Assembly: GCA_030248215.1 (NCBI GenBank)
Contig: JASANG010004046.1
Coordinates: 1 to 64,000 of the forward strand
Direction: 5' to 3'
Length of the DNA stretch: 64,000 nucleotides
Source: Enoplolaimus lenunculus
Lineage: Eukaryota
Part shown: positions 1-51,074 of the stretch, piece after piece
How the letters are laid out: every line of letters begins with the position of its first letter
Numbering within the stretch: the stretch's first letter is position 1
Translations under genes and position numbers: made by a program
Notes under the pieces: generated by a model
What the model saw: the letters and a program-made list of their open reading frames with translations, nothing else
Told to the model about the DNA's origin: nothing
Databases searched by the model: none

Positions 1-328
1 TACCAACAGTACACTGTACAAACTTTCGTTGATACCTGTGCAGCATTAAAAGCCGTAGTGGATGGCAGTTTTTCAGGTAGGTTGAATCTCAAGTTGAAAT
101 CAGAAGGAATCCTGATCGCCAAGCCAAGCCAGAACTCCACTGTGACATGCGGATGCATGGAGGCAAATAATAACCTCATGCTGATGCTGTACATCGGTAA
201 AAACACTGCTGCATATGTAGTGCCTTCATATGCAGCAGCAGTAAAACATTGAAGAACCAAGATACATGTGTATAATGTTGAGGTTCTTATAAGGCACAAA
301 AACAGAAAAACTCAGCAGTTGATTGTGA

Positions 329-411
329 GGCGGCGTGGCTCAGTGGATAGCGCGCTGGACTGAAAATCTGTCGATCCGAGTTCGAAACCAATTGGGAGCG
401 TCCCTCATTTT
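329..411 (+). promoter_or_regulatory. tRNA-derived Pol III internal promoter (A box/B box) in LTR1
   Basis: A box TGGCTCAGTGG 336-346, B box GTTCGAAAC 380-388, anticodon-arm-like GGACTGAAAATCT, then TTTT 408-411. The D-arm resembles tRNA-Arg, but the acceptor and T stems do not pair well, so it is not a functional tRNA. Confidence 0.8.
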
Positions 412-757
412 CAGCTGCTGAGAACTAAAAACTGAAAAACTGTCGTACCCTAGCCTACCCAACTTATCACATGGTGACCACGATGGGACCGCAATGGCAA
501 ACTGCCGCGGTAGAACCCAAAATACATAAGTTGGCGGTCAAGGGGCGACCTTGTAGAAAAACCGGGGGATGTGACATGCGGATGCATGGAGGCAAATAAT
601 AACCTCATGCTTATGCTGTACTTCGGTAAAAACACTGCTGCATATGTAGTGCCTTCATATACACCAGCAGTAAAACATTGAAGAACCAAGATACATGTGT
701 ATAATGTTGAGGTTCTTATAAGGCACAAAAACAGAAAAACTCAGCAGTTGATTGTGA

Positions 758-840
758 GGCGGCGTGGCTCAGTGGATAGCGCGCTGGACTGAAAATCTGT
801 CGATCCGAGTTCGAAACCAATTGGGAGCGTCCCTCATTTT
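758..840 (+). promoter_or_regulatory. tRNA-derived Pol III internal promoter in LTR2
   Basis: Copy of 329-411, identical by eye, ending in TTTT 837-840. Confidence 0.8.
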
Positions 841-1032
841 CAGCTGCTGAGAACTCAGAACTAAAAACCGTCGTACCCTAGCCTACCCAACTTATGACAT
901 CCACTATTTAGTTCCGTTTTTAATAAAAGATATTAGGTGTTTGAAAACTGTTACACTGTATTAGAAAAGCTAACAAAAATTGTTTGTGTATTTGCTGGGT
1001 AACAATAACACAAATGGCCAGCTAGTATTATC

Positions 1033-1578
1033 TGTAATAAGTCAGTTAGGCCAGATTTCACGACTGTTTTCAGTGCTTACGGTGCAGCTGAAAATGGTGG
1101 GCGTTCTCACGAAGTAGTTAATCCCGGGACCGACAGATTCTGGGTGAAGCGCGCTACTGCTGAGCCACGTGGCCTCACAATAAGCTGATGTATTTCTGTA
1201 TAGATATGTGCTCTTCGTGTCGGTATCTTACCACGCATTTTTAAGAGTTAAAGTTGGTTCCTCTATTCAAGCATGTGAGACATGTAGTCCGTTATGTACA
1301 CATGCAATATAGTGCAGTGCACTGCATGTATGCTAGGTGGCAGCATACGGTCGACACATATAGGCAACGAAACGTAGTTGGAGAAGCAGACTGCGTATTG
1401 CTGTGGTAGAGTGTTCGCTTAAGGATCCGTATGCTGAGAGTTCGATCCCCGCTCTGGAGGCCCGCTTATTATGACATCTGCGTATGTGCATTTTGTGGCT
1501 TCACATATGTATTAGCATTTCAGCGATGTGCAGCTATTAAGCTGAGCTGGTGTGGTCTACATGCGTCAGCCTGTCACA
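1033..1578 (-). mobile_element. Diverged solo LTR of the tRNA-LTR TRIM family (interrupted)
   Basis: The reverse complement starts TGTGACAGGCTGACGCATG (compare TGTGACATGCGGATGCATG), contains ATTGTGAGGCCACGTGGCTCAGCAGTAGCGCGC...AATCTGTCG...CATTTTCAGCTGC and ends GCCTAACTGACTTATTACA (compare GCCTACCCAACTTATCACA). The TSD is not clean. Confidence 0.75.
1274..1476 (+). mobile_element. Putative nested solo LTR or SINE-like insert with a different tRNA-like cassette
   Basis: TGTGA...TTATGACA ends; tRNA-like GCGTATTGCTGTGGTAGAGTG...GAGTTCGATCCCC at about 1393-1450. Its size accounts for the extra ~200 bp in the 1033-1578 solo LTR. No TSD seen. Confidence 0.45.
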
Positions 1579-1627
1579 TTCTTTGCAATGTGGCTGTTTT
1601 TGTGTTTTTCAAATTTGCGGATGCCTG

Positions 1628-2010
1628 CGTTAATATACGTGGTGTAGCGTGTGTATGTGCATAGTGTATGTAATGTAAGGGATATATATACACGTGCACA
1701 TATAGTACTAGAAAAAATATGATATCGGCCGCGTGTGTTTCGGAAAAATTAAGGAAAAACGAAGTATATTCGCAGTACTTTGAGGAAAGGGTCGTTCCGA
1801 CCGTGTGCAGTTCTGACATGGAGGTCCCATCGAGATTGGCGCTGTAAATTGCAGGCCCATAAATGTGGAGAAGTTTGGATTCGGGGTCCGGTACCACGGC
1901 CTGATGAGGGGGAATGTTGGTATACGTGGTGTAGTACGTGTATGTGCATAGTGTATGTAATGTAAGACACATACATACACGTGCATATTTAGTACTATAG
2001 AAAAATATTA
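1628..2010 (+). mobile_element. Second, degenerate TRIM primed by tRNA-Gln
   Basis: LTR1 ~1628-1818 ends ..TGACA. PBS TGGAGGTCCCATCGAGAT (1819-1836) has one mismatch to the tRNA-Gln PBS TGGAGGTCCCACCGAGAT. PPT GAGGGGGAA is at 1906-1914. LTR2 starts TGTTGG at 1915 and repeats ATACGTGGTGTAG..TGTATGTGCATAGTGTATGTAATGTAAG, then is truncated at about 2010. Confidence 0.75.
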
Positions 2011-2266
2011 ATGGGTAGTGCGCTTGACTAGTTCTCGAAAGGTCCGATGTTCGATTAAAAACTGAAAATTGCTGTAGGCGCTGCGGTGGTAACCCAACTG
2101 GAATCTGAAATTTAGAATATTTGGAATATAAAATCGTATTAAAAACAACTATATAAATTGAGCATAACATAAGTCCATCTCTGTACAGATTGTAAAACAT
2201 ATTGAGGTCCCTACGATATATAAACAATGTGCTTACCATTGGGTCTTTTCAGTATCTTACGGTGAC

Positions 2267-3958
2267 ATGATCAATAACAGAAATATCACAACTGACAATG
2301 TTTTGGCTGAAAGTGTAACACCAGATGGCAAAATTATCCCGTCGCACAATGGATCGATAGTCGAAGCGCCACCGGGACTATTGTCTTCCAAGCGATCGCA
2401 GTTTCAAATTACTGCGATTTCAGGGACGTCAGACGCAGAAGCCAATGTAGCAAAGTTCAGTTCATTAGCTAAGTCTAGCGGCCAGCATGTTGACACGGAA
2501 AATACCAGACGCCGTCGACGCACGCCTTCACGCAGTTCTGGCGGCGAAGAACAGTTGTATTGCAGCGACTATTTGCCATCGAAAAGCGTCGCGACACCAT
2601 CCACTTCTTCTGCTGAATCAGCATCTGCCGTTATAACTGCAGAAACGAACGGAAGTCTTTCAAGCTGCGATACGGTTTCCGCAACTGCAACCGAAACGAC
2701 AACGCCGAACAATGCTGGCTCAGGTGATGATGACGTGGATTCAGTGACGTCACCAACTGAATTTTGCTCTGCAGACCGTAACGCAGTGTTTATTTCGGAC
2801 AATAGTTCTTCCAGTGAGCGGTGTAGACCGATTGAAGGATGGTCGGTTTCTAGTAATCGAGAGATGTCTAAAAATGCGCGAATGCTTAAAGACGTTGTAT
2901 CCACGTGTAGCTCTGGTGGTTCGGGTGTGGTCACTGGCAGAAGTGATTCATACAATGTTAACGCACAAGTTTTGCAGCATACTGGTAGGTGTAAAGCAGC
3001 GAGTTCAACTGAAGGAAGATCAAGCAATAGTAACCCAGTGGTCGTTGCTGCTGCCTGTCGTACGGGTAATATTGTTAATATAGCACAGGAGCGTGGACCG
3101 CGAAACGTACCACCGAATTCTCAAGCGTTTAGCATTCTTGCGACACCACTTCCGGCAAATGGTGTTCATATTGCCCATAATGCAACCGCTGTACCCGCCG
3201 CTGCGGCGCTGTTATCTGGTGTTGCAGCGGCCGCTGCGGCGACAGCTGCATCAGATATTGCTGATCAAATCAGTCATGCGTCCAATTGTGCGAATGGCTC
3301 TCTTCCACGATTTCGGGTTGTCACTGTCGAGCGAGAACCGTTTCGCAGGGGCAGATGGACGTGTATGGATCATGCGGATCCGTCACCGCTTGGAACTGCA
3401 GCTGCAGTTCTTGCCGCTGCCGCAACTTCTGATAACTCGCCCCGTGTAAGTCCAATCGCGACAACTGTTTTGATGCCTTGTTCAACGGGAAGCCGAGATA
3501 TCAACTCCGCCGTTCCTACACCACAGTCTTTCAATGATATTATTCCTGTTTCGATATCGGCTCCGTCTAGTCGGTCTGGTGAGATCGGAGGATCTGAACA
3601 TAGTCTTCTGACCAGCTTAGCTGATAGCGTTGTTCTTGAGCACATTTCATGTCAACAGCCTAAGCAGCAAGCTCCAATGGTCGCAATTGCTGTACATTCG
3701 CATCCATCGCAAAATGATATTCCAACGTCGTGTGGTAGCTCAAATATTACAAACAGTAGTGCAACAGGCATAAACAGCTCTTCACTTGCGCAACATTCAA
3801 TCATTCCCTCAACTAATGTGTTAGTTATGGACAGGGCGACTGGGTCAACGCTTGTGTCTATTGCTACTCGGGACGGTCAAAATAGTTCGGCCTTTGCGTT
3901 GCCTGCCGGCATAGTTGTTTCTGATAGTCAATCTAATGTCATTGGTGTGCCTCAAAAG
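2267..3958 (+). CDS. TSC22D: TSC22-domain family (bunched/TSC22D-like) long isoform, coding exon 1
   Basis: Motif 1 KRSQFQITAIS (2390-) and motif 2 RFRVVTVEREPFRRGRWTCMD (3308-3370) are typical of long TSC22D/BunA isoforms. TTTTCAG acceptor at 2246-2252 upstream of the ATG; donor AAG|GTAATT, phase 0. Confidence 0.92.
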
Positions 3959-4959
3959 GTAATTAATATTAATTGTTTCATCTGATAGTTGACATTTTTC
4001 TCAATGTACAATATTTGTTATTCAGGACAATATAAAAGAGCTATACTTGTAGTGAATGAAAACAAGTATTCAGAAAGTGGTATTGCAGCAAAATTTACTG
4101 TGATTTTTACATCCTGAAATTACATTAAATTTGGTTTGTCTGATATGTGTATTGTACGGTGTGAGTGTTTGCAGTTTGGGCGACATAGTCGCCATGTATT
4201 TGGTCAATTAAGTATTTCGCTACACGACATATATACATAAGGTGTAACCCGAAATTTGGTTTTGCTTTTAAATCCAGCATTTTTGCCGGAATAACTGGAT
4301 AGTGTTCGGCTTTGGTAAGTTGAGTTTACTTAAATTTTTTGAGTGATGCGGTTTTATAATTACGTATAATTAGCGAAGTGATTGCTAACAGAGTAATGAA
4401 TTCATTGATTAAAATTTGTGTGTATTTGTATTCACTACTGAAGACAAACCTTTGTTGCAAATATACGTCACCCATATATTGTTAATTTGTGAAAAACAGC
4501 ACTTATTAGATTACCAGTTGGCGATAGGTCTTGTATCTTCCGAACTTCAAAATGGTTAGGTTCGTAATTTGGCGCTTTTTTGATTTGATTTATGTATTAT
4601 ATACCGTCGTCTGAAATCAACATTCACAGCTATCGCAGTTCGCTTGATTTAAAACCCATCACTAAGTATCTTGACGTCCTGCGCAGTCCGTCACCATATA
4701 GCAACTACGTTTATTGCCGCATGGAAAAGCATATCACTTTTAAACAAAAATTTTTTGACGTGCGGTGTCGTCCGGCGCCGCACGACAAGTATATCGCCAA
4801 CCAAAGTGATTATACATAATACGTACTGCATGTATTTGAGAATACGATTTCTGATTATAAGAAATTAATACTTATGTATATTCCTGCGTGCGGTGCAGCA
4901 CTATAGCTTAATGATTGCGGAACATTTGGCTACACATAAATTTATATTATGTGTTGTAG

Positions 4960-5021
4960 GTGAATTCTTTGCTGACAAGTTCTGGATCTGCGGGCGATTT
5001 TCAATCTGCTTCATTGACGAA
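4960..5021 (+). CDS. TSC22D: TSC22D-like long isoform exon 2 (VNSLLTSSGSAGDFQSASLTK)
   Basis: TTGTAG| acceptor and AA|GTAAGT donor; phase 0 to 2 bridges exons 1 and 3 exactly. Confidence 0.8.
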
Positions 5022-5318
5022 GTAAGTGAAACATGTGTAATAGTCAGGGTAAAACCGAATACCCAGCTTCTCCAAAAATGACATCCGGCTCCGCCAATCA
5101 TTTATAATGGGCGCTGCACGCACCGCCAGCTGGTGCTCGGCCTCGAAAATTTTGAAGCAGTGTATGGTGAGCTTTGAAACTTAGCTCGTGGTGTTTTAGA
5201 TCCGTTGCTGTTGCTGTTCGACTGTTCGATAACCTATTACTTACTTTGCGTTGGTATTAATGCATGCAGTGGTGAATATAGCTCTTTGACAATACTTTTG
5301 GACGATTTTGCATTTCAG

Positions 5319-5521
5319 AGAATTAAATCGTATCAAAATATCTGATGACGTGAACTTGGTTGATCAGCATAGATTTGCAAGTGATAGAGGTGACGGCTCC
5401 GGGCCGTCAAATTCGGCAGTCGTGGCTTCTGCCGTTGGAGAAATTGATGTGGAGTCACAAGGGACACATTCCTGTGCTAGCTCTCATCACGACAGTATAA
5501 AACACAACGAGCCACTCTTAA
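5319..5521 (+). CDS. TSC22D: TSC22D-like long isoform exon 3
   Basis: TTTCAG| acceptor, A|GTAAGT donor, open frame ELNRIKISDD...NEPLL, phase 2 to 1. Confidence 0.82.
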
Positions 5522-6783
5522 GTAAGTGAACGTAGAGTAACTTAGGGTCCGACTGGATATTAATTTACTGAATACCGGAGCTCGACATAAATTTTTAGCG
5601 CAACCGGACATATAAACCGGATATATCATGTGTGCGCTATTGGAAACAATCGAGCCGCGGAGAAGTGTAATACGTAATGTTTACTGAATTAAAATTAGGT
5701 CATTGTTTAATTTTATATGAAAATTATTCGGCTGTTTTTGTTTCGGTTTATTGTAGTGTTAAGAGCTCTATGAGTCAAATGTAGGATAAGTCGGAAGGAA
5801 AACTAATCTAACATTTTAATATGTACAGTAAGGCTTGCGCAAATACTTATGAAGCTGCACGCCGCAGCTGAAAAGCAAGTTGCTGCCAAGGTATAACTGG
5901 CATAAGGCTTGCGCAAATACTTATGAATGCTGCACGCCGCCGTCCATTACACGCGCTGTCGCGCTCCAATGGACGTATAGGTAACATGACCTGCGGTGAG
6001 TGTAGCGCAACCCTTACGCTGTTTGTTTCTTTATCCGGTTATATTTAAGCTCTACGTTATAACGGAATCGGAATCGGAACAGCAAATTTTGTGACTTGAA
6101 ATCAGTTATTGATATGCTAACTCATCGAAAGCAATTTAATAGATGTACTACAGAATTTTTATTTTTATGTAACGTATCACAACAAGTAAGACTGAAATTA
6201 AAATTTTAAAATTCAGATTCCGATTGATTGTGCAATCGGAATCGGAAGCGGAATCGAAACTCGTTATGAATCGGAATTCTAATTGGAATCAAAATTCTGG
6301 TTGCACCCTGCCTTCAAAGCTGGAACAAGAACAGGAACAATGAATCGAATTATTACGGGAATTCTGGCTGACACAGAAATTCCCGTGGAACCCTGCTAAA
6401 TATACAGTTTTACGCAGCTGAAATACTTCCTACAGCACAAAAATTTTAATGTTATTTCCAGTTGGCATTCGATATATTCTAATAATGTGACTTACTACTT
6501 GGGGTTTTTTACTGTTTTTTCACACCCTGGCTTAGTATGACGTGATCTTCAACTTTGGTCGTGCACGGCTAAACACGAAAAGTGGCGATGTAACCGGCTG
6601 TTATGTTGGGCTCAATGAATGAATGATTTTTTAATTGTACCTTTTATTTAGGTATTACGGCATTATTTTCTCTACTAGTTATTACACTTTGGATTTATTG
6701 TAAACTTTTCTGCTATGTTTAAGTTTAGCGTGTATTGGTGTGGAAGTGTACAAGAGTCCAGTTAGTTTGGTTTGTATTTTTAG

Positions 6784-7015
6784 TGCCTCTATCTTCAATT
6801 TCACGCCATCAGTCCAATGCCGTCGGTAGTGGCTTTCGTGATTTGTTCGAATATATTGCAGCGTCCAGGGCAGGAGCAAGCGCCGCCGCTGCTAGTGGTG
6901 GTAGCACAGGTGCCGCCGGCTCTGTACAACAGCCAAACGCTACTGCCGTGTCAAATTTAGAAATCATTGAAGATTTGCATGACCTTCTGCCGGCGAATTC
7001 AAACGATCGTAATCT
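6784..7015 (+). CDS. TSC22D: TSC22D-like long isoform exon 4
   Basis: TTTTTAG| acceptor, CT|GTAAGT donor, phase 1 to 2, compatible with the TSC-box exon at 30324. Confidence 0.82.
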
Positions 7016-7952: not shown

Positions 7953-9502
7953 GTACGTAGTATTTTGGCATTGTATTTTTTAGTTAGAGTGCTACGTAGA
8001 CAGGAGTGTGAGTGTCGACGAAAACAGCGAGGATCCCAAACCCAAGTGGTAGATATTTGTTCTCGGAAAAACTTTATCGGAGCGCTAGTTTCGTATGCAC
8101 ATGCGGTTACCAGCGTTATGCTTTGCTTGTTCCCTAGTACCCCACAAAATTTATAAAGTAGGGGTTAAATCCATCAATTTGTTTGATATTCCGAAAATCC
8201 AGTTATTCTTTGCTCTTGAAATAACAGCTGTCCAACTTCCGAAAAAGAAATAGGATTGGACAAGATAATGTGGCAAAGTTGCAACCTTTGGCAACCAGAT
8301 GAAATTGGATGCTATTCGCTAAATCTTGAACAATTTTTGAAATTAAAAGCTGAAAGAATAAAAACCATAAGAGTACTGATTTTTAAACCCCGGTTGCGCT
8401 TCTGATGCATATTGATTTTGTCGTTCTGAATTCATAGCCTATTTTGATTTTACCAGACTTGTGTCTGTACCAAGTATGGCAACTAAAAATAGTGTTTATT
8501 AAAGGTAAAACGCCCCGCATTTGTATTACGTATTTTGTGCATCGTTTCATCAAGAACAATTAAATTTTTTTGTAACGTAATTTTTATAGTTAACAAATTA
8601 GTTAGTTTTTTGTAAACTTTTTAATTTCGGCCGTTCATTTAGGAATTACAAGCTGCGAACCGGTTGATCTGCTTTGCATGCTATGAGATATTGCCGTTGT
8701 TAACCTTTCAACCACTTTAGCTAGTAGTAGTAGTAATTAAATCGAATCCAGGAAACGTTGTTTCTACCATTTTCGTTGCACCCCGGTTCCAAACTTTTTT
8801 GTTGGGTTCATAGAAGGCAAAGCACAGAAAGTCCAGAATTGACGTACATCTGCTCAGTGAAAATAATTACACTATACGGAATGTTTGAGTATATAATTTA
8901 ATTTAAATTTTAAATTTTGGCTGATGGGTCTTCTTGAGCGTACCACTGGCTGGTTGTAAGGCGATAACTTTTACGTTGTTTTTTGTTTGCTCTCCTGCAG
9001 AAATAAAAATATATATAGGCTTTTGAATGCAACGCCATGTTTTGTTCTTGGTGCAACCGGAAGTCCGGTTTCGGTATAGAGACCGTGGCTGGGTACTCGT
9101 TTAGTTCTCCTACAAAAAAAGCTCCGTTCACGCACAGTGACGGGATTAATAAAATCGACTGCGGCTTAGGGTTATGTTTAGCTTAAACCGAAACATATGC
9201 ATAGGAAAGTAATAAACAGCAATGTGGGGGGAACTTTTGATTTCTATCAAGTTAACACTAATGAACGGGAAAGCTAACAAGTACCGTAGCGAAATCTGAT
9301 ATTTTTTCAGTTTTTAAATTTACCACTGAAATCAGGACGTTACGTACTTTACGTAGCCAGGTGTAATTGTTTGAGTTTTTGACAGTTGGTTTTTGAGCAA
9401 ACTTGAAATGGGTTAGTGCGCTGCAGTATATGCATAGAGAGATCACCTTAGATAACTGCTTGCTATATTCACTTATAAAAATTATGAATCGGTAACATAT
9501 GC

Positions 9503-9845
9503 TACCAGTCGTAGTAAGACTACATTTATTGGGCGAAGCTCGAACACACGTAAGAAATTAAGGTAATATGCAAATTAGTTATTAGCTAACTACTCAATTA
9601 TCGGCTTTAGACGTGTGTAAACAATTTATTCAGATTCCTCGCACCAAAGAACCTTAAGTAAACCCTAATAATTGTTGAAATAATTTAAAAAGTCCTAAAT
9701 TTGTCTTGTCAATTAAGCTAATATGCAAATTAGTTATTAGCTAACTATTCATTTATCGGTTTTGGAGGTTTGTAAGCAATTTCCTCAGATTCTACGCACC
9801 CAAAAACCCTTCAGCCACCCTAATAATTATTGGAATAATTTGAAA
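9503..9845 (-). mobile_element. Partial Helentron/DINE-like element
   Basis: Same AGTCGTAGTAAGACT stem-loop end, GCGAAGCTCG subterminal motif and ~155-bp internal tandem unit as 21557-22352. Confidence 0.65.
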
Positions 9846-10782
9846 CGTCATATGTATATGTATATATTAGGGTGTAACCGGATTTCGAGTTCCGGTTTAA
9901 TATTCGACACAAACCTATATCCGGTTCCGGCATAAACCGGCCGGATACCGGATATATACGCCTGTGTTTTCGAACCCCATGAAAGTGCGTTCTTTTGACA
10001 TGTAGATATATTTAACATCTTGCTGCGATTACCTTTTTGAGCAAATAAAGCTGTTACATTTTGCATTAACCGAAAGAGAACGATAAATCCAAGCTACCAA
10101 ATATTGTTAAATCAGTAAACATATATTTTTGCGCCACTCAATTACTTTCTGCAACACTCATATTTACATGCTATATCTAGTTAATATCCGGTTCGGATAA
10201 AAAAACTCAACATCCGGTATCCGGTAAATTAACATCCGTTCGTACCCTGACATGTATTACACACATTGAGTTTGGATAGTTTTATCTGACGTTTAGACGT
10301 GTCTGAAGTAACCAATTGTGGCCTCATTCTGCTCCAATTAGCAACTACAACGTATAGTGTAGATCGGCGCGAATTGGCGTATACTACTAATTTGAGCAAA
10401 TTTACTTCAGTCAAGTCTAGACTTTTATTATAGCCTGAGCGTAGACTATTCCACAATATTGAAATCCTGGATTTGACTTCCTGAATTTGCGAAACCTAGA
10501 TCTGCTCATACGGGCTCCGCGCTATAGACTGGTGAACATAAGTTAGCGTTTAGCAACATATAATTTGCGGACCTATAACTAGACACTGACCAGGTGGCTT
10601 AGCTTACCGCAGAAAAGTTTGCTCACAAGACAACTCTGTGTTTCGCTGGTGAATCCTGCGTGCCAGATCTTTTGCACCCTCACCTTCTTAGTTAGTGGCG
10701 TGGCTATGAGTTGGGTAATTTTGTTGTCAACACATCGTTATAGATTTTGATTTTGTAAGTTTGTGAATAAGTATGGAGGTAT

Positions 10783-20372: not shown

Positions 20373-20790
20373 GTTTAGATTAACGGGTCGCTTGGTGTAA
20401 AACAATATCCTATTGTTGTTATTTTGAACTACTGTAGTGACCCGAATAAGAGGGGGACTGATATTTGTTTGCCCTTTCCAGAGGGTGCCCCCCTGTTATT
20501 CGATTACGGACTATTATTTATTTTTAACCCGCCCTTCGCCACCCTTCGGTACTGATATACATTCGGTATTGCAACTATCCGTTGAATTAGACGTTTGTCT
20601 TGTGTCAAAAGTAGGGAACGACAACGTATATAAAATACAAAAAGTTCAACTGATTGTTTCGCAAAATTAGTCAACAAAACTTACAGCAACTAAAAAAGAA
20701 GTCTTTAAAATTTTTATGTTTGTTCTTCTTCCGCAACAACACTGGTCTTCACGTGGATGTCATTAGCCTGACATTCCAACAAAGCATTAA

Positions 20791-21053
20791 CCCTTTCTCA
20801 CATGAATATTTTTAATTTCCCGTGAGACCTACTTTTATGCTAGGATTAGAACTCTAGTGACTGGAGCGGGAGGCGTATACCATCACCACTCAGCTATAGG
20901 AGCTTGACGCTCGAGCCCGAGAGGGCTCTCACGTCTTGTGGTGATTTAGTACTACGTTTACGTGTTGCAATTGTTAAACCATGGTGCGATATATACTATT
21001 TAACGTATATACACTGCGCTGAGTTGCCTACAGGCAACTCAATGTGAGAAGGG
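20791..21053 (-). mobile_element. piggyBac-type (TTAA) MITE carrying a tRNA-like A/B-box cassette
   Basis: TTAA|CCCTTTCTCACAT...ATGTGAGAAGGG|TTAA, 263 bp. The internal reverse strand reads GCTCCTATAGCTGAGTGGT...GAGTTCTAATCC. Hairpins GAGTTGCC-TACA-GGCAACTC and GAGCCC-GAGA-GGGCTC. Confidence 0.85.
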
Positions 21054-21556
21054 TTAATGCTCACAAAGGGCTTATTAGATTACGTACGCATAGTTGAAAT
21101 ACATACACCAATTTTGGTATGTTTTTGTTTGTATATATATCAAATTTTGGATCCGGAGATGCGGTAGTATATTTTACCGGATCCGGATTCGGATCCGGAT
21201 CTTAAAAATTGTAGAGATCCGGCCCGGATCCGGATCTCGGATCCGGTTGATCCCTAGTCAAAAGCTTGAGCGATAAAGCTAGGTTATACTTTGAAATGCA
21301 ATTTTAAAACTTAAGCATGCTTTAAAGTTTGGAACTCAACTTTGTTTGGTCCTGGACTCATTTATGCGCGGTAATGTGTCGGTATTTGGCAGGATCCCTG
21401 CCCATGTCCCCAAGTTTTCCAGCTGCATGGTCGAAAGGTTGGTAGTTCCCGACCGATCTTATCTAACTACATTTGTAATTTTCAAGAGCAGTGATAAGAT
21501 GGGGTGTCGATGCCAAAGAGACGGGTGCCCTCCTTTTATTGGACCAAGTGACTATC

Positions 21557-22352
21557 AGTCGTAGTAGGACTACTTTTATTGAGCGAAGCTCGAGCGCACG
21601 TAAGTAGTTAAGCTATTATGCAAATTAGTTATTAGCTAACTATTTATTTGTCGGTTTTGGTGGTTTGTAAGTAATTTACTCAGATTCCTCGCACCCAAAA
21701 ACCCTTCAGTCACCCTAATAATTATTGAAATAGTTTAAAAAAGTCCTAGATTTGTTTTGTCAATTAAGCTAATATGCAAATTAGCTATTAGGTAACTATT
21801 AAATTATCGGTTTTGGAGGTTTGTAAACAATTTATTCAAATTTCTCTCACCTAAAAACCTTTAGTGCTTAAATTATATTGCTTTTAACCTTAATAATTAG
21901 TGAAATATTGTAAAAAGTCTTAATTTAGGCTTATAAACTATGCTATTATGCAAATTATCTATTAGCTAACTGCTCAATTATCGGTTTTGGAGATTTGTAA
22001 ACAGTCTATGCAGATTCCTTGCACCCAAAAACCTTTAATGCTAAAATTAGATTGCTTCTAACTGTAATAATTAGTGAAATATTGTAGAAAGTCCTAATTT
22101 AGGCTTAATTAATTATGCAGATTATCCTGTAGCTAATTAACGGCTTAAAATTTTAAAACCCCAATGCGAGGTTAACAACCCAGGATAATTGGCTTTCAAA
22201 CAAAAAAGTTTATCAAAATCGGTTCAGCCGTTCCTGAGATTCTTTTCCGACGGACAGACGGACGGACGGATATCCACCTTTCGACCTTCCAGTACAAAAC
22301 ATAAAACGCTTCGCGAAACTGTCAGCTTCGCTCGGAGTTTCGCTTCGCTCAA
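21557..22352 (-). mobile_element. Helentron-associated/DINE-1-like non-autonomous element (full length)
   Basis: Subterminal inverted repeats TTGAGCGAAGC (21579-) and GCTTCGCTCAA (-22352), terminal stem-loop GTAGTAGGACTAC, GACG/GACA microsatellite near one end, and 3-4 internal ~155-175-bp tandem units. Confidence 0.72.
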
Positions 22353-30323: not shown

Positions 30324-30375
30324 CCCAACTGGTACAAGTGTGATTGCAATCGATAACAAAATAGAGCAAGCCATG
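30324..30375 (+). CDS. TSC22D: TSC22D-like shared exon: TSC box N-part (PTGTSVIAIDNKIEQAM)
   Basis: TTTTAG| acceptor, ATG|GTAAGA donor; IAIDNKIEQAM is the hallmark TSC-box sequence. Confidence 0.97.
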
Positions 30376-30701: not shown

Positions 30702-31226
30702 GATTTGGTAAAAAATCATTTAATGTACGCCGTACGCGAAGAAGTGGTCGTTCTGAAAAACAAAATTGTTTCACTAGAAAAGAAGTTGCATCGTCTCGAA
30801 TGGGAAAACAGTATTTTGCGTGAGTCGGCAAGTGTTGATGTACTTAATCAAATCAGTGCAGCGTTTGCTGGCGCAACAACAGTCGATGCAAGTACGCCAC
30901 CAACGGCAACAACAGCAACAATTACAACAACTGAAAATGTACGGCCGGCAAGCGGTGCAGCAGCGCAGTTGCATGCGATCCCGAGCGGTGGAAACGTATC
31001 TAGCGATCAAGGAGGTTCTTTAGCTGCACTTTCGACTCTGAATCAGCAAGTTTCGGGCGTTGGATCTATGGTAGATGGACATGGGGTTCCTACCGGTAAT
31101 CGTGAGCTGTCTGTTAGTCAAGTTGAGCAACAGCAAGCAGCACAGGTTTCTGCAAGTAGAGGTACAAGAGATATGGCCGGGACAGGACCAGAGTCTGCAG
31201 GGGGTCCACAGAACACAACGGGATAG
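30702..31226 (+). CDS. TSC22D: TSC22D-like terminal exon: TSC box C-part and leucine zipper
   Basis: TTTTGCAG| then DLVKNHLMYAVREEVVVLKNKIVSLEKKLHRLEWENSILR with heptad leucines; stop TAG at 31224-31226. Confidence 0.97.
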   Translation, partial: DLVKNHLMYAVREEVVVLKNKIVSLEKKLHRLEWENSILRESASVDVLNQISAAFAGATTVDASTPPTATTATITTTENVRPASGAAAQLHAIPSGGNVSSDQGGSLAALSTLNQQVSGVGSMVDGHGVPTGNRELSVSQVEQQQAAQVSASRGTRDMAGTGPESAGGPQNTTG

Positions 31227-34380: not shown

Positions 34381-34718
34381 CAAACATATAATGCCGATGT
34401 GGCTCCTCATATTAACCTCATCTGATGATTTCAATTAAAATGTAATTTTTTAAGGCTAAATTATATACTTACGGAACCAAAAATGTATATTCAACAGTTT
34501 AGAAATGTTTATTTTTTCATGCATATTACTGTGTGAAAGCGACTAGCAGTGTTGAATTGCGTCATTTTTGCGTTGGATGACAGGTTCAGCGCTCCTAATT
34601 TACTATTTTTTGCCATGTTGAAATTCATGTGCTTTGCGGTACGGTGCCGTGCAGTGGCGGACGGCGCCGGACGTCCCCGAAAGTGGTGACTGGTTTAGCG
34701 CACCTAATTTATTATTAA

Positions 34719-34981
34719 CCCCTTCTCACATTGAGTTGCCTATACGCAACTCAGCGCAGTGTATATACGCTAAATAATATATATCGCACCGTATTTAACA
34801 ATTGCAACACGTATACATAGTACTAAATCACCACAAGACGTGAGAGCCCCCTCGGGCTCGAGTGTCAAGCTCCTATAGCTGAGTGGTGATGGTATACGCA
34901 TCCCACTCCAGTCACTGGAGTTCGAATCCTAGCATAAAAGTGTGTCTCAGGGGAAATAGAAAATATTCATGTGAGAAAGGG
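34719..34981 (+). mobile_element. piggyBac-type (TTAA) MITE with tRNA-like cassette, second full copy
   Basis: TTAA|CCCCTTCTCACAT...ATGTGAGAAAGGG|TTAA, 263 bp, inverted relative to 20791. A box TAGCTGAGTGG at ~34876 and B box GTTCGAATCC at 34920-34929. Confidence 0.87.
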
Positions 34982-36701
34982 TTAATTTTTCATTTACTTT
35001 TGCTTAAAAATAAAAACCAAGAGTATTAAGAAGCTCTTCTTCCTGCAAACGAATAAAACTGTATATTGTGTAAACGAAACAACAACTATAAGGTAACATA
35101 TGCATGCTAACAGTTAGCACATAAATTTTTTAAGCCATGGAAAAAAGTTGATGTCATGTAGAAATTCATGTGCTTTGCGGTAGAGTATCATACGGTGACG
35201 AACGGCGCCAGACATTATCAAAAGTATATCGCCATCCTAAGTATATCTATAATTTACCTCAAACTCAAACGTCGAAGCTTTGGTACACTAAATTACTTTT
35301 CATGCACAAGGTCCAACGCAGGACCGAGCTTATGACAGTATCCCACAGGATATAAGAAAAGATAGGTTTGCAGTAACACATTGAATTATAAAAACTTTTC
35401 TGGCAGTAACTATGATTGGAATGCGACCAAAGGAAAGGGACCAAAATCAAACTGCTCTAAATTTACAAAATCTACCCACAAAAATCGTCAAGGATTTAGT
35501 TAATATTCTGACTGAGGCTTCAATACTGAATTTTTTCGTCACTTCCAGCTACTTTAATGGTGAAACACTGTAAATTATACCAAAAAAAATTTTTATACAA
35601 TAGCATTTCAGATATCCGGATATTTTTCAGATCCGGATATCTGGTGCACACTATGGTGTATACACAACATATACGCAACTGCACTAAAAATTTAGTCGCC
35701 GGTAACTTTCTAATCAGGGTGCCTGCCGTTCTAACATTAGACAATTGAACTCAGCACGTCATTAGAAAAAGCCGCTTTTTATTAAACTCATAAGGGCTTC
35801 TTCAGATTCTGTACCTTGTCTACTTTTATTTAGCTTCCGTGATTGCACTATTTGCTTATAATATTTAGCGTATTTGCTTTTAACTATTATATACATTGGT
35901 GTCATGGTTATATACGCAGAGATGTCATGGGGGTGGGATCTCCATGGGATGTGGGATGGTGGATCAGTTCAAAATTGGCGGGGTTTCCACACCGCCCCGG
36001 GGTTAAAAAAATTTAACATACGTACTATGGAATAGACAGTTCTACATATCGGTAATTGTCAACGGTAATCTCCGTGTATTATCAAGGTCACTTAGGTTCG
36101 CTGACAGACACAATATACTACCTTACAATGCAAGTTGAAGAGTTTACCGAACATTCTCAAGGGCCTGCAAAAGCACAAGATTCGGGCGGTAAATGCTTTT
36201 AGAAAGCTGCCGCGTACACGGACCTCACCATTTTAATTCAATGCTATATTTTTCAGTTCCACTACGGACATTTTTCTTCAAATTTTGATAAAACTGTTCA
36301 CAAAATCAAAGATTTCGAAAACTTTCGCGCTTTGCGCGAACGCAGAGTATGCAAACTAAAGAAATCGGCTTGTATTTTGTTCAGTACTCTGGCTGTTATG
36401 TTTTAACCACTCGGATCCTCACATTGCAACATGGGGTTACGCACGCCCCTGATCGCTGAAATTCGGCCGATGCCCCATATAAGGCGGTGCTAGTTTTTAT
36501 CTGCAAGATCACAACATTCCTTGATGCCCTTCCAGCGATTTCTAACAAGGCTTGCGGTTTCAATTTGCAGCTGCAAGCTTTTTTGCACAAACTTGCACGA
36601 TTGCATGTGGCTTTAGCCTGTCTTCAAGGTATTAAGGCACAATCAAAAAATGGCAAATACCAATTAACAATATTAGGCGTCATTATCATTGGTCACAAGT
36701 T

Positions 36702-36857: not shown

Positions 36858-37651
36858 TATACCAGTCGTGGTAGACCTACATGTATTGAGCGAAGCTCGG
36901 ACATACTTTCTTTTTAATCATTCTAGTTAAACATTTCATACTAAGAACAAACGGATAGTTTGGCCAAATTACTTTTAAATTAATCTAACAAGCAATTTTG
37001 TCATTAGCTGCTTATTTATTGATGGGTTTTGAAGGATTATAAACAATTTATTCAAATTTCTCGCACCCGGAAATCTTTTAGTACTGAATTTGATTGCATT
37101 TAACCCTAATAATCAGCGAAATATTTTAAAAAGTCCGAATTTACACTTAAATAGTTAAGCTAATATGCAAATTAGCTATTGGCTGACTATTCAGTTATCG
37201 GTTTTGAAGGTTTATAAACAATTTGTTCAGATTTCTTAAACCCGAAACCCTTTAGTACTGAAATTAGATTGCTTGTAACCCTAATTTTAGTGAAATACAA
37301 TAAAAACCCTAATTTATGCTTAACCAATACGCAAATTAGCCTGTAGACAGCTTAAAATTTAAAACCTCAATGCGAGGTTACCCCACCAACCAGGATGACA
37401 AGCTTTCAAACAAAAAAGTTTATCAAAATCAGTTCAGCGGCTCCTGAGATTCTTTTCGGACGGACAGACAGACTGGCGGACATCCAGCAGGATAACAAGC
37501 TTCAAACAAAAAAGTTGATATTAAAATCAGTTCAACGGTTCGTGTAATTTTTTCGGACGGACGGAAGCACGTCCACCTTTCGAACCTTGAGTACAAAACA
37601 TATAACGCTTCGCGTAACTCCTAGCTTCGCCCGGAGCTTCGCTTAGCTCAA
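36858..37651 (-). mobile_element. Helentron/DINE-like element copy
   Basis: TTGAGCGAAGCTC...GCTTAGCTCAA, same internal tandem units, duplicated GGACGGACAGACA block. Confidence 0.7.
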
Positions 37652-37887
37652 TACAGCCTTGGGGCATGCTTCTTTAATGATTAACGGATACACACTACAT
37701 CAGTACCGCAACCTTACATGACACCAAGTCTGGAAGTTAGCAGGTGTGCGGCTGATCTCCCCACGAAAATTACCCACGAGGTGGGGTGGGGTTGAAAATT
37801 CGTACCCCATGACATTCCTGTATATACGTGTGCTATTACTATTAATGGTATAAAAGATATATAGTTATGGTGGCGATATACTTTTCG

Positions 37888-38090: not shown

Positions 38091-41000
38091 ACATACATGT
38101 CTTAGGTGTACTTCGGTAGTGCAGTACAGCTCAAGAAAAATTCGAAGAATCAATATGTTTAGAGCAAGGAAAAATATTGAACCAGTTTCGTGGATATGGA
38201 GCTTTCATGAAATCTTGCTCAGTGGCGTATCCATTCTGGTCCATGTAAAGATCAGGGGCGAAACGTTTTTCAGTAAGATTAAAATAGAATAAGCTTAAGC
38301 TGTAGACTGCTTCTTTGCTTTGCTTAGGCTTAGGCTTAGGAATAAGCTTATAATACTGTTTTGCCCTTGTTCCTTACGTTGGCCGTAATTCTTATGGTAA
38401 ACAGAAACATGCATTAAAACTAGATTGGCAATCCAGAAAAGTATCTTTTCCAAAATCCGTCATCCGAACTGGACTCGCCTCTGATCTCCGTTTCCAGTAT
38501 GAAATTCTTGGCTTTTATATTTGTGAATAGACTGTTGCCACTTTCTGTTATGGCTATAACTTTTCAATTGTTAACATTTTCTTATCACCGATGTATTACT
38601 TGCGTATGATATTGCTGGATAATTCTAGTCTACATTTCATGCTTGTAAAATCTTAGTTCACATTGGTTCGGTATAGTCCTTATACATTAGTTTTTGGAAA
38701 GTGGCAGATAAAACACAATTTCTGAACAAGTATTTTAGTATAAAAGGTTCATAATTGTTCGAGTTTAGAGTTCGACAAAATTTGCCAGAGCCGAAGACAT
38801 TGTAAATGGACAGTTTAAACGTGCTGAATTTGCTAATTGTGTCCTGAAGAAGTTAACAAGATGTTATAATCGTTAACCATATATAGACAACAGGGTACAA
38901 CCGGAGGTGCAAAATACGTTGAAATTATATATGTTTAATTTGCGAGTTTTACAAATATCAGCAATTTGTTGTTAAATCTCTTGGTTTTACGCTTATTTTC
39001 TACGAAATGTCAGAAATTTCTTCCTTAAAATTCACCAAAAGTTTTAATACGAAACGCACCAAACGAACAAATTTTATTAAGCAATGCAAAATTTCACTAC
39101 CAAAATTGTCGGAATCTTCGACAGAAATTTTGTCGGAGCCGGATTTCGCTTTTCTGCTGCAGCTGAAACCGGAGGCATACCTCCGGCTGTACCGTGATAG
39201 ACAGACATCCGGTAACATCCGCCTATGAAAGTCTAACTTACTTAGTGAGTTTATCTTATAGGCTGAGAAATTAGTTGCGAACCTGTCGACACAAATTTTC
39301 TGTTTTCATATAGACAGCGGTTTGTTTCAAATGCACTAGACTTGCTGTCGTTAGTGTCAGGCAGAGGTCTTACTAAATTCAAACAGAAATATCACAGTCT
39401 TCAATCCGAATAGCCCTTGTGGCTCTTGGTAAACAGATTCGCGTCATTAAAATTTTTTTGTTATCGCGATCCAGCAATTTTATTGACATGATTATTTTAA
39501 TGATAATCCTCAAAAGTGCTGACAAAGATGTGTTCTCAAACTTTTTGGAAAAATATTGGCAATAAAATTTTCTAAAATTGCTTTAAAGTTACGAACGCAC
39601 TCATTGACACGCGCAACTCGGAAAAATGTCGAAAGTTTCATAACCGAAACAACAGGAGCTTCCGGAAAAAAATTATCGGAGCCGGGAGTCGTTTTTTTAC
39701 CGAGATGAGGCAACCCTTACGTTGTATTCTGTTGTATGAAATTTAAGAAAACAGAAAAGGGCCCTGAACTATTAATATCTTGAGCTTTGAATACTTTATT
39801 CATCCCGAATATGTATATACTAAATATAAACGTGCCGAACAACGAAAATGGAAATGTGATCAAAAACGGAAACAGACGAAGCATAAAACAAAACTTGCCT
39901 GAGGACCAGCCGTAGGTGACGCGAAATTTAGATGGGTTATAAACAATGTTTAATTTGCTAATTTTAGCAAATAACTTTAAAGCGTTGTGAAAAATCTCGA
40001 ATATTTGTACTCAAAATTATACCATTCGCCGAACGCACCGTACCATACCTACATTTTTTGTAAAACTATAAAAGCACTGCCGGTTCGGTCGATTTTCTGC
40101 TGGAGCCGGAGGCAGACCTTCGGATGTAACCCTGCAATTGAAGCATGCAAATATTAACTTTATGTTCTATAATTTAGTTAAAAAATATAAGGTATTCTAT
40201 AGAACAAGGTTTCATGCATTCTTCCATTTCTGGTGTGAAACCCTCAAACGACTTAATGCCACATTCTTTGAGTTTGTCATCAAAACACTCGTCGGCTGAA
40301 AACATACAAATAAAAAACTAAAAATGTAGCTGTATGTAGTGCCCATATTCTCAAATATATGCAGCACCAATTTCCATTTGATGATTGGTCCCATAAATTT
40401 CAAACCAGTGAATCGCGAACTGCAAAAAATTGGCAAATTTTATAGCATTTTGCTGCTCCTACTGATGCGCCAAGTTTGAAGTTGTTAGCGGCCAGAGTCA
40501 GCTTGCAGGAGACACATTTGAGAATACGCGCCTATGGCGGCATTATTTTAAGTTTTTGGCGTTTCAATTGCACGTAGAAATTTGCACGTGTACTAAGCCA
40601 TGTATATTTTTACGCTGACAAAACAATAGATTTTTGCGGAACAACTGTAAAACAAAGTTTATATAACCCTTTCTCACATGAATATTTTCTATTTTTCCTG
40701 AGACCTACTTTTATGCTAGGATTCGAACTCGACTGGAGTGGGAGGCGTATACCATCACCAGTTGCGATTATCAAACACGGTGCGATTATAGATGGGCACC
40801 GGATATCCGGATATGAAAAATATCCGGATATGTATCCGAAATGAAACGTGTATCCGGATATCCGAAATGCTTTTGTCTAAAATTTTTTTTGGAATAATTT
40901 GCATGGTTTGACCACCAAAGTAGCCGGAGCCAGGGTTGTTGGCCGGTAAAAAATTACCGGAAAAAATGGTTTTTTCCATTTTTTCCCATTTTTTTCTGAG

Positions 41001-45634: not shown

Positions 45635-46844
45635 ATTTTAACAGGAGTGTTGCCACCCCCTGTATCTCTCACACTTGAAAGGACCCTAAGCGGGATGGGG
45701 GGCTGCCGCCCTCCAAGCCCCCCTGCTTTAAGCGATCGTGCTTACCAAACCAAAAGTAACAAGAAATTTTAAGAATCGTCACGTATGCACATACAGGAGT
45801 AGCAAATGCTACTCTCCGGCACTATTGCTGTCTGGCGGAAAAACAGGGCGCCCGTGAAAGTAAGTACATGGGCCGTCCCGGCTGTTCCACTGTCCCAGAT
45901 GTCATCGCTGTGCCAGCTGCCCACGCTTTCCCAGCTGTCAAAGCTGTCCCCGCGTTTTCGGGACAGCGGAACGGCCCTCAGCGTAAACACGGGCCGCATT
46001 TTTTTCCGCCAGCAAGGGATTTTTCGTGAAATACTCAAAAATTAAAAGTTCAGCTTAACGCAAGGCACCAAAATATATAAAAGGTCAAAATCTTTGATTT
46101 ATCACAACCGTATTCCTGTTGCCATCCTGGTTCGCGAGTTTACTTGTTATTCGGTTACGGACTGTTATTTATTTTTAACCCACGCTCCGCCGCCCTTCGT
46201 TACTGATATATATCCGGGTCTGCAACTATCCGTTGAATTAAACGTATATTTGTCTCGTTTCAATAGTTTGAGCGATATATAATAAAAGGTTTACTTAGGA
46301 ATGTACTTTCAAAATTTAAGTAGGCTTTAAAGTTTCGAACTCGAATTATTTGGTCCTGAAGTCATTTATGTGCTACAATTCGGGTTAATTGACATTTATG
46401 GACTCTAATTAGGGACTCTATCCGCTTACGGACTCTTATTACGGATACGGACTCCTATTGCTTCGGACCCAAAATGGGGACCTCCCTCTTATTCGGGTGA
46501 ATACAGTAGGTAATATATAGACAGTAGGGTTCAACTTAAATTTCTATTCTGGCGGAAATTCCTGCAAAAATTGAATTCCTGTTTTTGTACCGTTGTGGAA
46601 AAACACTGGGACTGGATTTTTTAAATTTATGGCAAATTCTGAAGAATAACCTTAACTGATAATTTCAGAACTATCTCGTTAGCTTTGTAGGCTCTCACGT
46701 CTTGAGGCGATTTTGCACTGCGCATTAATTAGCTTTTACCCTTTCTCACATGAATATTTTCAATTTCATATGAGATGTAATTTCAAGGTAAGATTCGATT
46801 CCCAGTCTGGCCCATGTTACTATAAAGGCCGTGATGCTGATTTC

Positions 46845-47516
46845 GATCGCACAGTCCAGTTTCGTGTTTATTGGTCTGAAGACAATCCACATGTCACGAT
46901 TAACAAAGAGGTCAACGCCCCTGAAGTCTGTGTCTGGGCCCAAATTTGTTCACAAGGCATCGTTGGTCCATTCTTTTTTGACGGAAATATCAATAAAACC
47001 AGCTATTTGGAACTTTTATCTGTGAATGTCTACCCGCAAATCGCAACCGAGTACCTTGTTTTCATGCATGACGGAGCCCCAACTCACTACGCTATCGAAG
47101 TCCGCGCTTGGCTTGACGAAAGGTTCCCGAATCGATGGATCGGCCGCAGAGGTGCCATCGAGTGGCCATCTAGGTCACTAGACTTAACTCCGCCTGACTT
47201 CTTTCTTTGGGGTGTTGTGAAAGATATTTATGGAAGTACGGCGAAGGACCCTCAAGAATTGGACAGAATAAAATCAGCGTTTTCTAAAATTCCAGTGGAC
47301 CTATGCGCCAAAGTTTGCCGATCTGTACCATCCCGACTGGAGACATACGCTCAGCTTGGCGGTGCACAGACTGAGCTGTTCTAAGATCTACCGTCGTAAT
47401 GTAAGTAAACTTTATATACTTGTCTCTATAATTATACAAAAAACAGGCGAGCTACCTCTGCCCAGTCAACCAATAGTTAGCATCAAACAGTGGGAAGTTA
47501 CTTCTGAAACACCCGG
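46845..47516 (+). pseudogene. 5'-truncated Tc1/mariner transposase of DD41D (rosa/Visitor) type with right end
   Basis: VYWSEDNPH...VCVWA..GIVGPFFF..FMHDGAPTH..WIGR..WPSRSLDLTPPDFFLWG, with 41 residues counted between the second and third catalytic Asp. The N-terminus and first Asp are absent. The element ends GAAACACCCGG|TA. Confidence 0.88.
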
Positions 47517-47781
47517 TATAATATATATATATATACATTAAATATATGTTATATACATAACATATGCATATATATGTATATACATATAAATATATACATT
47601 ATATATAACATATAATGTATATATAATATATACATATGTACATATTTATCAACTGTTCAATTCGTCCCAACTGTCCCATCTCTCCAAACTGTCCCTTCTG
47701 TCCTAAGTGTCTCATCTGTCCCAAGTGTCCCATAAGTCCAAACTTTTCCATTTGTCCCGACTGTCCCATCTGCCCCGTTAA

Positions 47782-48040
47782 CCCTTTCGCACATATTTTC
47801 AATTTCATATGAGATGTAATTTCAAGGTAAGATTCGATCCCCAGTCTCATGGTTGGGAGGCGTTTACGATGACCACTGAGCTATAGGAGCTTGACGTCTT
47901 GCCCGAGTAGGCTCCCACGTCTTGTGGAGATTTTGCACTGCGCATATATGTTATATATGTTAAACACCGCTCATAGTGTGTGTATTGCTCGTACATTATT
48001 GTGTTTAGTTGCTCATAATATACTCTGAGTGAAAAGGTTA
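47782..48040 (-). mobile_element. piggyBac-type tRNA-cassette MITE, second subfamily
   Basis: TTAACCCTTTCGCACAT start; reverse strand reads GCTCCTATAGCTCAGTGGT..CGCCTCCCAA..GGATCGAATC; ends GTGAAAAGG TTAT. Partial relatives at 40667-40760, 42561, 43060-43246, 46739 and 48070-48200. Confidence 0.7.

Positions 48041-51013: not shown

Positions 51014-51074
<61 letters not shown>

What the first reader, a model, noticed from the sequence alone, without database searches (positions are those of the whole stretch)
141..899. Miniature LTR retrotransposon whose LTRs carry a tRNA-derived Pol III promoter (SINE/TRIM hybrid)
Seen: TSD(TCCAC)-LTR-PBS-short spacer-PPT-LTR-TSD with no credible ORF, and an A-box/B-box tRNA-like cassette in each LTR. 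Known: plant Cassandra TRIMs carry 5S-derived Pol III promoters. From memory (needs verifying), tRNA-LTR TRIMs have been named Helenus, with animal members reported to make 4-bp TSDs; this one has a clean 5-bp TSD, suggesting a different helper integrase and possibly an independent lineage. Inference: a Pol III-transcribed parasite that borrows Gag/RT/IN from an autonomous LTR element.
Basis: partly seen in the sequence, partly recalled or inferred. Interest (0 to 1): 0.88.

Follow-up and report, generated by a model that had tools for sequence, protein, structure and literature searches.

The report
Animal Helenus mini-retrotransposon, five-base scar
A real, many-copy, 759-base gene-less jumping element in an unidentified animal carries a broken tRNA gene in each end repeat that likely acts as its promoter; it is of the known Helenus kind, but this copy left a 5-base insertion scar where all measured animal members leave 4, which would point to a different helper retrotransposon.

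Summary
Observation confirmed. Window 141-899 holds two 330-331-base LTRs (97.3% alike, TG...CA ends), an 18-base primer site directly after LTR1, a purine tract and an exact 5-base duplication (TCCAC). Each LTR carries an A-box/B-box pair at tRNA spacing (0.04 expected per 64 kb). It is a dispersed family, not a local duplication: up to 98 contigs per run leave the element right after base 899 into unrelated flanks, diverged copies join LTR, cassette, primer site and purine tract, and an older 70%-alike LTR remnant with the cassette lies next door. By Kojima's 2024 definition it is a Helenus TRIM, so the SINE/TRIM hybrid is known. The difference: 113 of 115 listed animal Helenus have 4-base duplications, none 5. 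That rests on one copy (about 0.7 that it is the family rule), and animal Ajax TRIMs already make 5. A hairpin motif before the purine tract, shared with animal Helenus and Ajax, favours a Gypsy helper with a 5-base stagger (Mag-like) over BEL or Copia. Pol III transcription, primer tRNA, helper and host phylum are unproven. Modest interest.

The parts
136..140 (+). left target-site duplication TCCAC
141..471 (+). 5' LTR, 331 bases, TGT...ACA
   Evidence: contig depth rises from about 10 to thousands in the bins holding this edge and longest pieces start at 141-142
206..238 (+). hairpin in the upstream (U3-like) part of the LTR; two of the LTR differences weaken it in LTR2; role unknown
   Evidence: z -4.6, 0 of 200 shuffles fold as well; picked after seeing the inverted repeat
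329..404 (+). decayed tRNA-derived cassette in LTR1 (predicted R region)
   Evidence: aligns to Rfam tRNA positions 1-58, 11.2 bits, below cut-off
336..346 (+). A box (LTR1)
380..388 (+). B box (LTR1), 44 bases after the A box start
408..411 (+). TTTT, the only run of four or more T on the sense strand of LTR plus internal part; predicted leaky Pol III terminator
472..489 (+). primer-binding site, 18 bases, no spacer after the LTR; complement fits tRNA positions 59-76; isotype unresolved
   Evidence: 14 of 18 letters match the Trp site printed in Kojima Fig. S2
539..553 (+). 5-pair hairpin before the purine tract with the GG(G/A)CGA motif seen at the same place in animal Helenus and Ajax; predicted helper-recognition signal
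555..569 (+). polypurine tract abutting LTR2
570..899 (+). 3' LTR, 330 bases, TGT...ACA, with cassette 758-833, A box 765-775, B box 809-817, TTTT 837-840
   Evidence: 98/94/50 contigs diverge behind 899
900..904 (+). right target-site duplication TCCAC
1033..1215 (-). older remnant of a related LTR (3' half with cassette, TTTT and ACA end), about 70% alike; its 5' end and duplication are lost
   Evidence: local score 128 against a maximum of 33 in 300 shuffles; blastn E 7e-12

Best explanation
This is a Helenus-type TRIM, a gene-less miniature LTR retrotransposon of a dispersed many-copy family, that is likely transcribed by RNA polymerase III from the tRNA-derived boxes in its 5' LTR and likely copied and inserted by the proteins of an autonomous Gypsy element whose integrase would cut with a 5-base stagger (Mag-like). 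Shown: the anatomy, the family, the 5-base duplication of this copy. Inferred steps: (1) TFIIIC binds the A/B boxes and Pol III starts just before 329; (2) most transcripts stop at the TTTT at 408-411, but a minority read through U5, primer site, internal part, purine tract and LTR2 and stop at the twin TTTT at 837-840, giving a roughly 510-base RNA whose terminal repeat (R, about 80 bases) is the cassette itself; (3) helper Gag packages it, probably via the hairpin at 539-553; (4) a host tRNA primes at 472-489, the strand jumps at R, the purine tract primes the second strand; (5) helper integrase joins the TG...CA ends. Separate odds: TRIM with tRNA-derived LTR cassette 0.95; Pol III used for the replicating RNA 0.7; 5 bases is the family rule 0.7; Gypsy rather than BEL/Copia helper 0.65.
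For: Anatomy. Family: in 3 runs (2 samples, 1 study) 98, 94 and 50 contigs run off behind 899 with agreement of only 0.33-0.36; 13 of the 24 longest pieces shown carry upstream LTR plus both boxes in one diverged contig (some are the same locus in two runs); 5 of 24 join an LTR end to the primer site in diverged copies. Summed depth over unique-flank depth gives 1,000-7,000 for LTR bins and 300-800 for the internal bin (rough, the tool says this is no copy number). None of the 21 listed variant places inside the element falls in an A or B box (148 rows not shown). Cassette also in the 70% remnant. A T run follows the cassette in many Helenus LTRs seen by eye. T4 terminates 75% of human Pol III transcripts from a U6 promoter, so about a quarter read through (PMC5725217 section 6). 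GGACGA lies just before the purine tract in 19 of its 22 places in Kojima's Data S1 (17 animal Helenus, 2 Ajax; none in the fungal parts); this copy reads GGGCGA, as several bivalve families do, and the A form is the majority letter at 545 in family contigs. Culex Mag-lineage Gypsy: 20 of 21 listed copies have 5-base duplications, against 2 of 27 in Mdg1/Mdg3/Osvaldo (2 gypsy-lineage rows left out).
Against: Only one copy with both flanks could be read, and 0 of 113 animal Helenus families with a measured duplication have 5 bases. No helper was found: none of 122 window frames matched a retroelement domain. The cassette scores below the Rfam cut-off and folds no better than shuffles (z 0.0). 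Depth in the B-box half is two- to threefold lower than in the bins upstream, and 7 of 15 listed joints skip to 850-853, past the cassette, with unknown letters between, so some copies may lack or have replaced it. T runs are not significantly depleted given composition (0.28-0.71 expected, 1 seen). The TTTT in LTR1 would cut off most transcripts. The six-letter motif is short, exact in only a minority of animal families, and was spotted after the fact.
Confidence: 0.6

Rival explanations
1. An ordinary animal Helenus with a 4-base rule; this copy is an occasional 5-base insertion.
For: 113 of 115 listed animal families have 4 bases, 2 not determined. In Culex 4-base lineages, 2 of 27 copies were listed with 5 bases. 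The neighbouring second cassette family (1266-1476) has flanks TCTA / TCTG, 3 of 4 alike, a weak hint of 4 bases in this genome.
Against: A 5-base duplication is about 13 times likelier from a 5-base lineage than from a 4-base one on the Culex counts (20/21 against 2/27). The 113 families are a handful of lineages, not independent draws. Ajax shows 5 bases in an animal TRIMp3.
Confidence: 0.27
2. The TRIM replicates from a Pol II transcript; the tRNA cassette is a passenger (an old SINE or tRNA insertion fixed in the LTR) that makes at most a short RNA of about 85 bases.
For: TTTT directly after the cassette in LTR1. TATAA motifs at 271 and 288 lie upstream of the cassette. Pol III use is unproven for all Helenus (PMC10886601 section 4.1).
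Against: Both boxes are intact at tRNA spacing while the arms have decayed. The cassette persists in a 70%-alike remnant. No AATAAA occurs on the sense strand of the element. T4 is leaky.
Confidence: 0.25
3. The helper is a BEL/Pao or Copia element, which would make this the first animal Helenus outside Gypsy dependence.
For: Five-base duplication with TGT...ACA ends. Copia helpers of fungal Helenus make 5 bases. That BEL elements mostly make 5 bases is recalled, not from a call.
Against: The pre-purine-tract motif is shared with animal Helenus that Kojima ties to Gypsy by their primer sites, and is absent from the fungal, Copia-linked entries. Full-length 3'-end priming with no spacer resembles the animal Gypsy-linked sites.
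Confidence: 0.2
4. A local tandem duplication or SINE dimer that mimics an LTR element.
For: None beyond the two copies being adjacent.
Against: Sharp shared ends in dozens of other loci, internal part with primer site and purine tract in diverged copies, exact duplication around the whole unit.
Confidence: 0.02

Closest known systems
Helenus (TRIMp3 with tRNA-derived LTR sequence), Kojima 2024, PMC10886601; seen: main text parts 1-5 of 6, passages of the rest, supplement parts 1, 5, 7, 10, 11 of 11 and two searches of the whole supplement
   Same: Under 1000 bases, non-coding, two TG...CA LTRs, primer site and purine tract, intact A/B boxes in a decayed tRNA in the 3' half of the LTR followed by a T run, no complement between cassette and primer site, pre-purine-tract motif of animal families.
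   Different: Five-base duplication (animal members: 4 in 113 of 115, 2 undetermined); LTR of 331 bases against a listed maximum of 323; primer site not among those in Fig. S2 (best seen 14 of 18 to Trp); host not placed and not close to any named protein source. No listed family shares its termini or primer site in motif searches; no alignment to the published consensus set was run.
Ajax (5S-derived TRIMp3 of nemerteans), same paper
   Same: Animal TRIM with a predicted Pol III promoter in the LTR, 5-base duplication, GGACGA before the purine tract.
   Different: Ajax carries 5S promoter boxes A, IE, C and a Leu primer site; this element carries tRNA-type A/B boxes.
Cassandra (plant 5S TRIM), Kalendar et al.; seen: passages of PMC7215508 and Kojima's summary
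   Same: Small-RNA promoter inside the LTR; transcription from the 5' LTR cassette to the 3' LTR cassette, with read-through of intervening LTRs reported.
   Different: 5S-derived, plants only; Pol III transcription shown for Cassandra, only inferred here.
Mag-lineage Gypsy elements (Culex; PMC3286476, Results part 1 of 4 and passages)
   Same: Five-base duplications, short LTRs (119-304 bases), one family with an Arg primer site: a model for the helper.
   Different: Autonomous and coding; no sequence link to this element was shown.

Membership tests
TRIM | under 1000 bases, two LTRs with TG...CA ends | tested here: met
   759 bases
TRIM | primer-binding site and polypurine tract at the ends of the internal part | tested here: met
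   472-489 fits tRNA positions 59-76 (1 of 31 ACA+TGG sites in the window does); 555-569
TRIM | no coding capacity | tested here: met
TRIM | dispersed multi-copy family with fixed ends | tested here: met
Helenus | tRNA-derived sequence with A and B boxes inside the LTRs | tested here: met
   weak as a whole tRNA (11.2 bits), strong as a box pair
Helenus | cassette is a family feature, not a one-copy insertion | tested here: met
   both LTRs, the 70% remnant, 13 of 24 longest contig pieces; the share of copies lacking it is unknown
animal Helenus (subgroup trait) | 4-base target-site duplication | tested here: not met
   5 bases in the one copy that could be read; family rule untested
animal Helenus (subgroup trait) | primer site shared with an autonomous Gypsy of the same host | not testable with these tools
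   no genome held; metagenome scan gave 4 uninformative loci
TRIMp3 | transcribed by RNA polymerase III | not testable with these tools
   needs RNA ends or ChIP
Ajax / Cassandra | 5S rRNA-derived sequence in the LTR | tested here: not met
   no 5S match in Rfam scans
SINE2 | tRNA head at the 5' end, LINE-like or simple-repeat tail, no LTR pair | tested here: not met
   cassette lies 188 bases inside a TG...CA repeat followed by a primer site
retrozyme | hammerhead ribozyme in the LTR | tested here: not met
   no Rfam match in 1-1500 at E<=5

The most novel reading that the evidence does not exclude
An independently born animal Helenus lineage in a phylum not yet listed, riding a 5-base-stagger integrase, while a second tRNA-cassette LTR family in the same genome (1266-1476) uses a 4-base one. 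One genome would then hold two Pol III mini-retrotransposons on different helpers, and the leaky TTTT after the cassette would be what sets both the terminal repeat and the replication rate: a direct test of how TRIMs pick and switch helpers.
Probability: 0.2. Interest if true: 0.62.

Novelty: new variant of a known kind. Interest (0 to 1): 0.36.

Why it matters
Kojima's split of Helenus into Copia-driven fungal families (5 bases) and Gypsy-driven animal families (4 bases) rests on duplication length and primer sites. A many-copy animal family with 5 bases would be the first exception in print as far as searched and would show another capture of a tRNA promoter or a helper switch. How TRIMs recognise their helper is stated as unknown; the shared hairpin before the purine tract is a concrete candidate. 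The twin-TTTT model makes a sharp prediction of two RNA sizes (about 85 and about 510 bases). The effect on the host is likely that of any SINE-like repeat; this copy lies about 1.3 kb before the first long coding exon found of a TSC22/bunched gene.

Tried and rejected
No whole genome is held, so copies could not be tabulated. Sequencing runs: 3 DNA runs from 1 study; no RNA holder listed, which says nothing about expression. Metagenome scan for the primer site after an LTR-like end: 4 loci, 3 of them near-identical; none matches the element beyond the 19-base pattern, none has an LTR pair or an evident retroelement frame (frames listed for 2 of 4, not scanned against Pfam); rejected as uninformative. 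Viral contigs: 0 matches to the cassette. Window-wide search for other TGT...ACA units with exact duplications: 245 chance pairs, only this element has both ends on repeat borders. Self-priming by the cassette: no complement of 6 or more bases to the primer site on the sense strand; rejected. T-run depletion as a sign of Pol III selection: not significant. Folding: internal part z 0.4, cassette z 0.0, pre-purine-tract region z -0.1; the predicted 512-base transcript z -3.1, not interpreted because it holds a direct repeat. Host placement: TSC22 exon searches gave 78% to one unnamed JGI protein and at most 68% to named vertebrates and scallops, the Atlas only the family, a PRRC2-like region (label recalled) nothing; phylum not placed. 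Primer isotype: two literature searches for the site found only unrelated primers in their listings; that an Arg tRNA may fit better than Trp is recalled, untested. The second cassette family shows no significant alignment to the LTR or the remnant (scores 26 and 18, within shuffles), so kinship is not claimed. Papers opened without bearing on the verdict: PMC6934838, PMC13570524, PMC8220671 (passages); search listings only.

Full report
Observation. The element is there as described. Window 141-899 consists of LTR1 (141-471), a 98-base internal part (472-569) and LTR2 (570-899); the LTRs are 97.3% alike, with 8 substitutions and one gap. TCCAC flanks both sides; 4-, 6- and 7-base readings fail and a chance 5-base match costs about 0.0012. 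The 18 bases after LTR1 read as the complement of tRNA positions 59-76, with purine 59, pyrimidine 60, C61, C62 and CCA in place; 1 of 31 ACA+TGG sites in the window does so. A purine tract abuts LTR2. No Met-started frame exceeds 52 codons.

The cassette. Each LTR has an A box and a B box 44 bases apart, as in a tRNA gene; such pairs came up 0.04 times per simulated 64 kb and never in 100 shuffles. The two in the element are one event copied twice. As a whole RNA it is decayed: ARAGORN finds nothing at default, a relaxed run calls it only at a level where other chance calls appear, and Rfam's tRNA model gives 11.2 bits against a cut-off of 29, aligning D arm, anticodon arm and T loop but not the 3' stem. 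This is the state Kojima describes for Helenus.

A family, not a local accident. No genome is held, but three DNA runs of two samples in one study hold the stretch. Laid on 1-1500, depth jumps from about 10 to thousands at the left end and falls back after 900. Behind 899, 98, 94 and 50 contigs continue into unlike flanks (agreement 0.33-0.36). Of the 24 longest pieces shown, 13 carry upstream LTR and both boxes in one diverged contig, and 5 join an LTR end to the primer site; some are one locus seen in two runs. Depth ratios suggest thousands of LTRs and hundreds of internal parts, a rough figure the tool warns against. Runs of both samples hold this copy's right junction without differences. 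An inverted LTR remnant at 1033-1215, 70% alike, also has the cassette, the TTTT and the ACA end. Against uniformity: depth is two- to threefold lower in the B-box half, and 7 of 15 listed joints skip past the cassette with unknown letters between, at low depth.

Host. A TSC22/bunched gene follows (Pfam E 3e-21; exons at 30325-30375 and from 30702), so the host is an animal. Its closest relative is an unnamed JGI protein at 78%; named vertebrates and scallops reach at most 68%. The phylum is not placed.

How it likely works. Pol III would start just before 329. The only run of four T on the sense strand sits right after the cassette (408-411; twin at 837-840). In human cells T4 stops 75% of Pol III transcripts (PMC5725217 section 6); carried over, that gives mostly an 85-base RNA and about a fifth (0.25 x 0.75) full-length 510-base RNAs that begin and end with the cassette, which then serves as the R repeat for the strand jump. 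Read-through of LTRs is reported for Cassandra. A host tRNA would prime at 472-489 (the cassette cannot), the purine tract would prime the second strand, and a helper's integrase would insert the DNA. All of this is inferred; the lack of other T runs is not significant.

Which helper. Kojima lists 115 animal Helenus families: 113 with 4-base duplications, 2 undetermined, none with 5 (my count of Table S1), and links them to Gypsy by primer sites. A 5-base duplication does not require leaving Gypsy: in Culex 20 of 21 Mag copies have 5 bases, against 2 of 27 in Mdg1, Mdg3 and Osvaldo (two gypsy-lineage rows left out). That ratio, about 13 to 1, against a prior of roughly 0.15 for a new animal lineage, gives about 0.7 that 5 is this family's rule. 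A hairpin at 539-553 holds GGGCGA, and the majority letter at 545 makes it GGACGA. In Kojima's Data S1 that hexamer lies just before the purine tract in 19 of 22 places, in coelacanth, bivalve and wasp Helenus and in both Ajax families, and in none of the fungal parts (line breaks may hide some). Ajax makes 5-base duplications. I therefore favour a Gypsy helper with a 5-base stagger. No helper sequence was found. The primer matches the printed Trp site at 14 of 18 letters; the isotype is open.

Comparison and novelty. It meets every tested defining feature of Helenus and fails only the subgroup trait of 4 bases. Its LTR is slightly longer than the longest listed (331 against 323). Searches for Helenus with TRIM and tRNA, for TRIMp3, and for tRNA-derived Pol III TRIMs found no later description of an animal member with 5 bases (open-access library only; Repbase and Dfam not searchable). 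Unchecked notes of this scan report Helenus-like elements in diatoms, a flatworm and a probable springtail, which lowers the surprise of a new host. Supplement parts 2-4, 6, 8 and 9 were seen only through motif searches, so a distant listed relative is not excluded.

Verdict. Real, well-formed, a new family of a known kind with one variant trait that rests on a single copy. Interest 0.36; the tabulation of duplications on the assembly would settle the variant at once.

Noticed in passing
window 1266-1476 (+): A second, higher-depth repeat family with a degenerate tRNA-like cassette; most family contigs begin with TGT at the place of 1266 and continue past 1467, so this copy seems internally deleted; it ends in TTATGACA like LTR2. 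Flanks TCTA / TCTG (3 of 4 alike) hint weakly at a 4-base duplication. Possibly a solo LTR of a second Helenus-type family.
   Followed up: partly
window 1033-1476: The old LTR remnant (minus strand) and the second family (plus strand) sit head to head right beside the TRIM, so three tRNA-cassette elements cluster within 1.4 kb while the LTR matches nowhere else in 64 kb. Insertion preference near Pol III units is possible but untested.
   Followed up: no
window 34714-34986 (+) and 20786-21058 (-), fragments at 40664-40760, 46735-46806, 47778-48202: A 273-base MITE with TTAA flanks and CCCT...AGGG inverted ends (piggyBac-like, label recalled), 92% between two copies, that carries an internal A-box/B-box pair at 34876: a DNA-transposon-type element with a Pol III-like cassette.
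   Followed up: partly
window 2168-3985, 30325-30375, 30702-31226 (+): TSC22/bunched gene with a long first coding exon and a 26-kb intron region; the TRIM lies about 1.3 kb upstream of the long exon.
   Followed up: partly
window 50506-52755 and 54096-58835 (-): Two very long low-complexity frames (749 and 1579 codons) with no Pfam match; the second has motifs recalled as PRRC2-like, not confirmed by search.
   Followed up: partly
window 46683-47384 (+): Tc1/mariner-like transposase fragment, weak DDE_3 match E 0.0055, beginning within a fragment of the MITE family.
   Followed up: no
window 9502-9852, 21552-22352, 36966-37652, 53132-53745: Dispersed repeat family with internal tandem units of about 155-177 bases.
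   Followed up: no
not in the window: two wasp LTR entries in part 9 of the supplement of PMC10886601 (rows 19-20): They contain what looks like a hammerhead ribozyme core (motif recalled), i.e. a possible Helenus/retrozyme hybrid; not seen mentioned in the text parts read.
   Followed up: no
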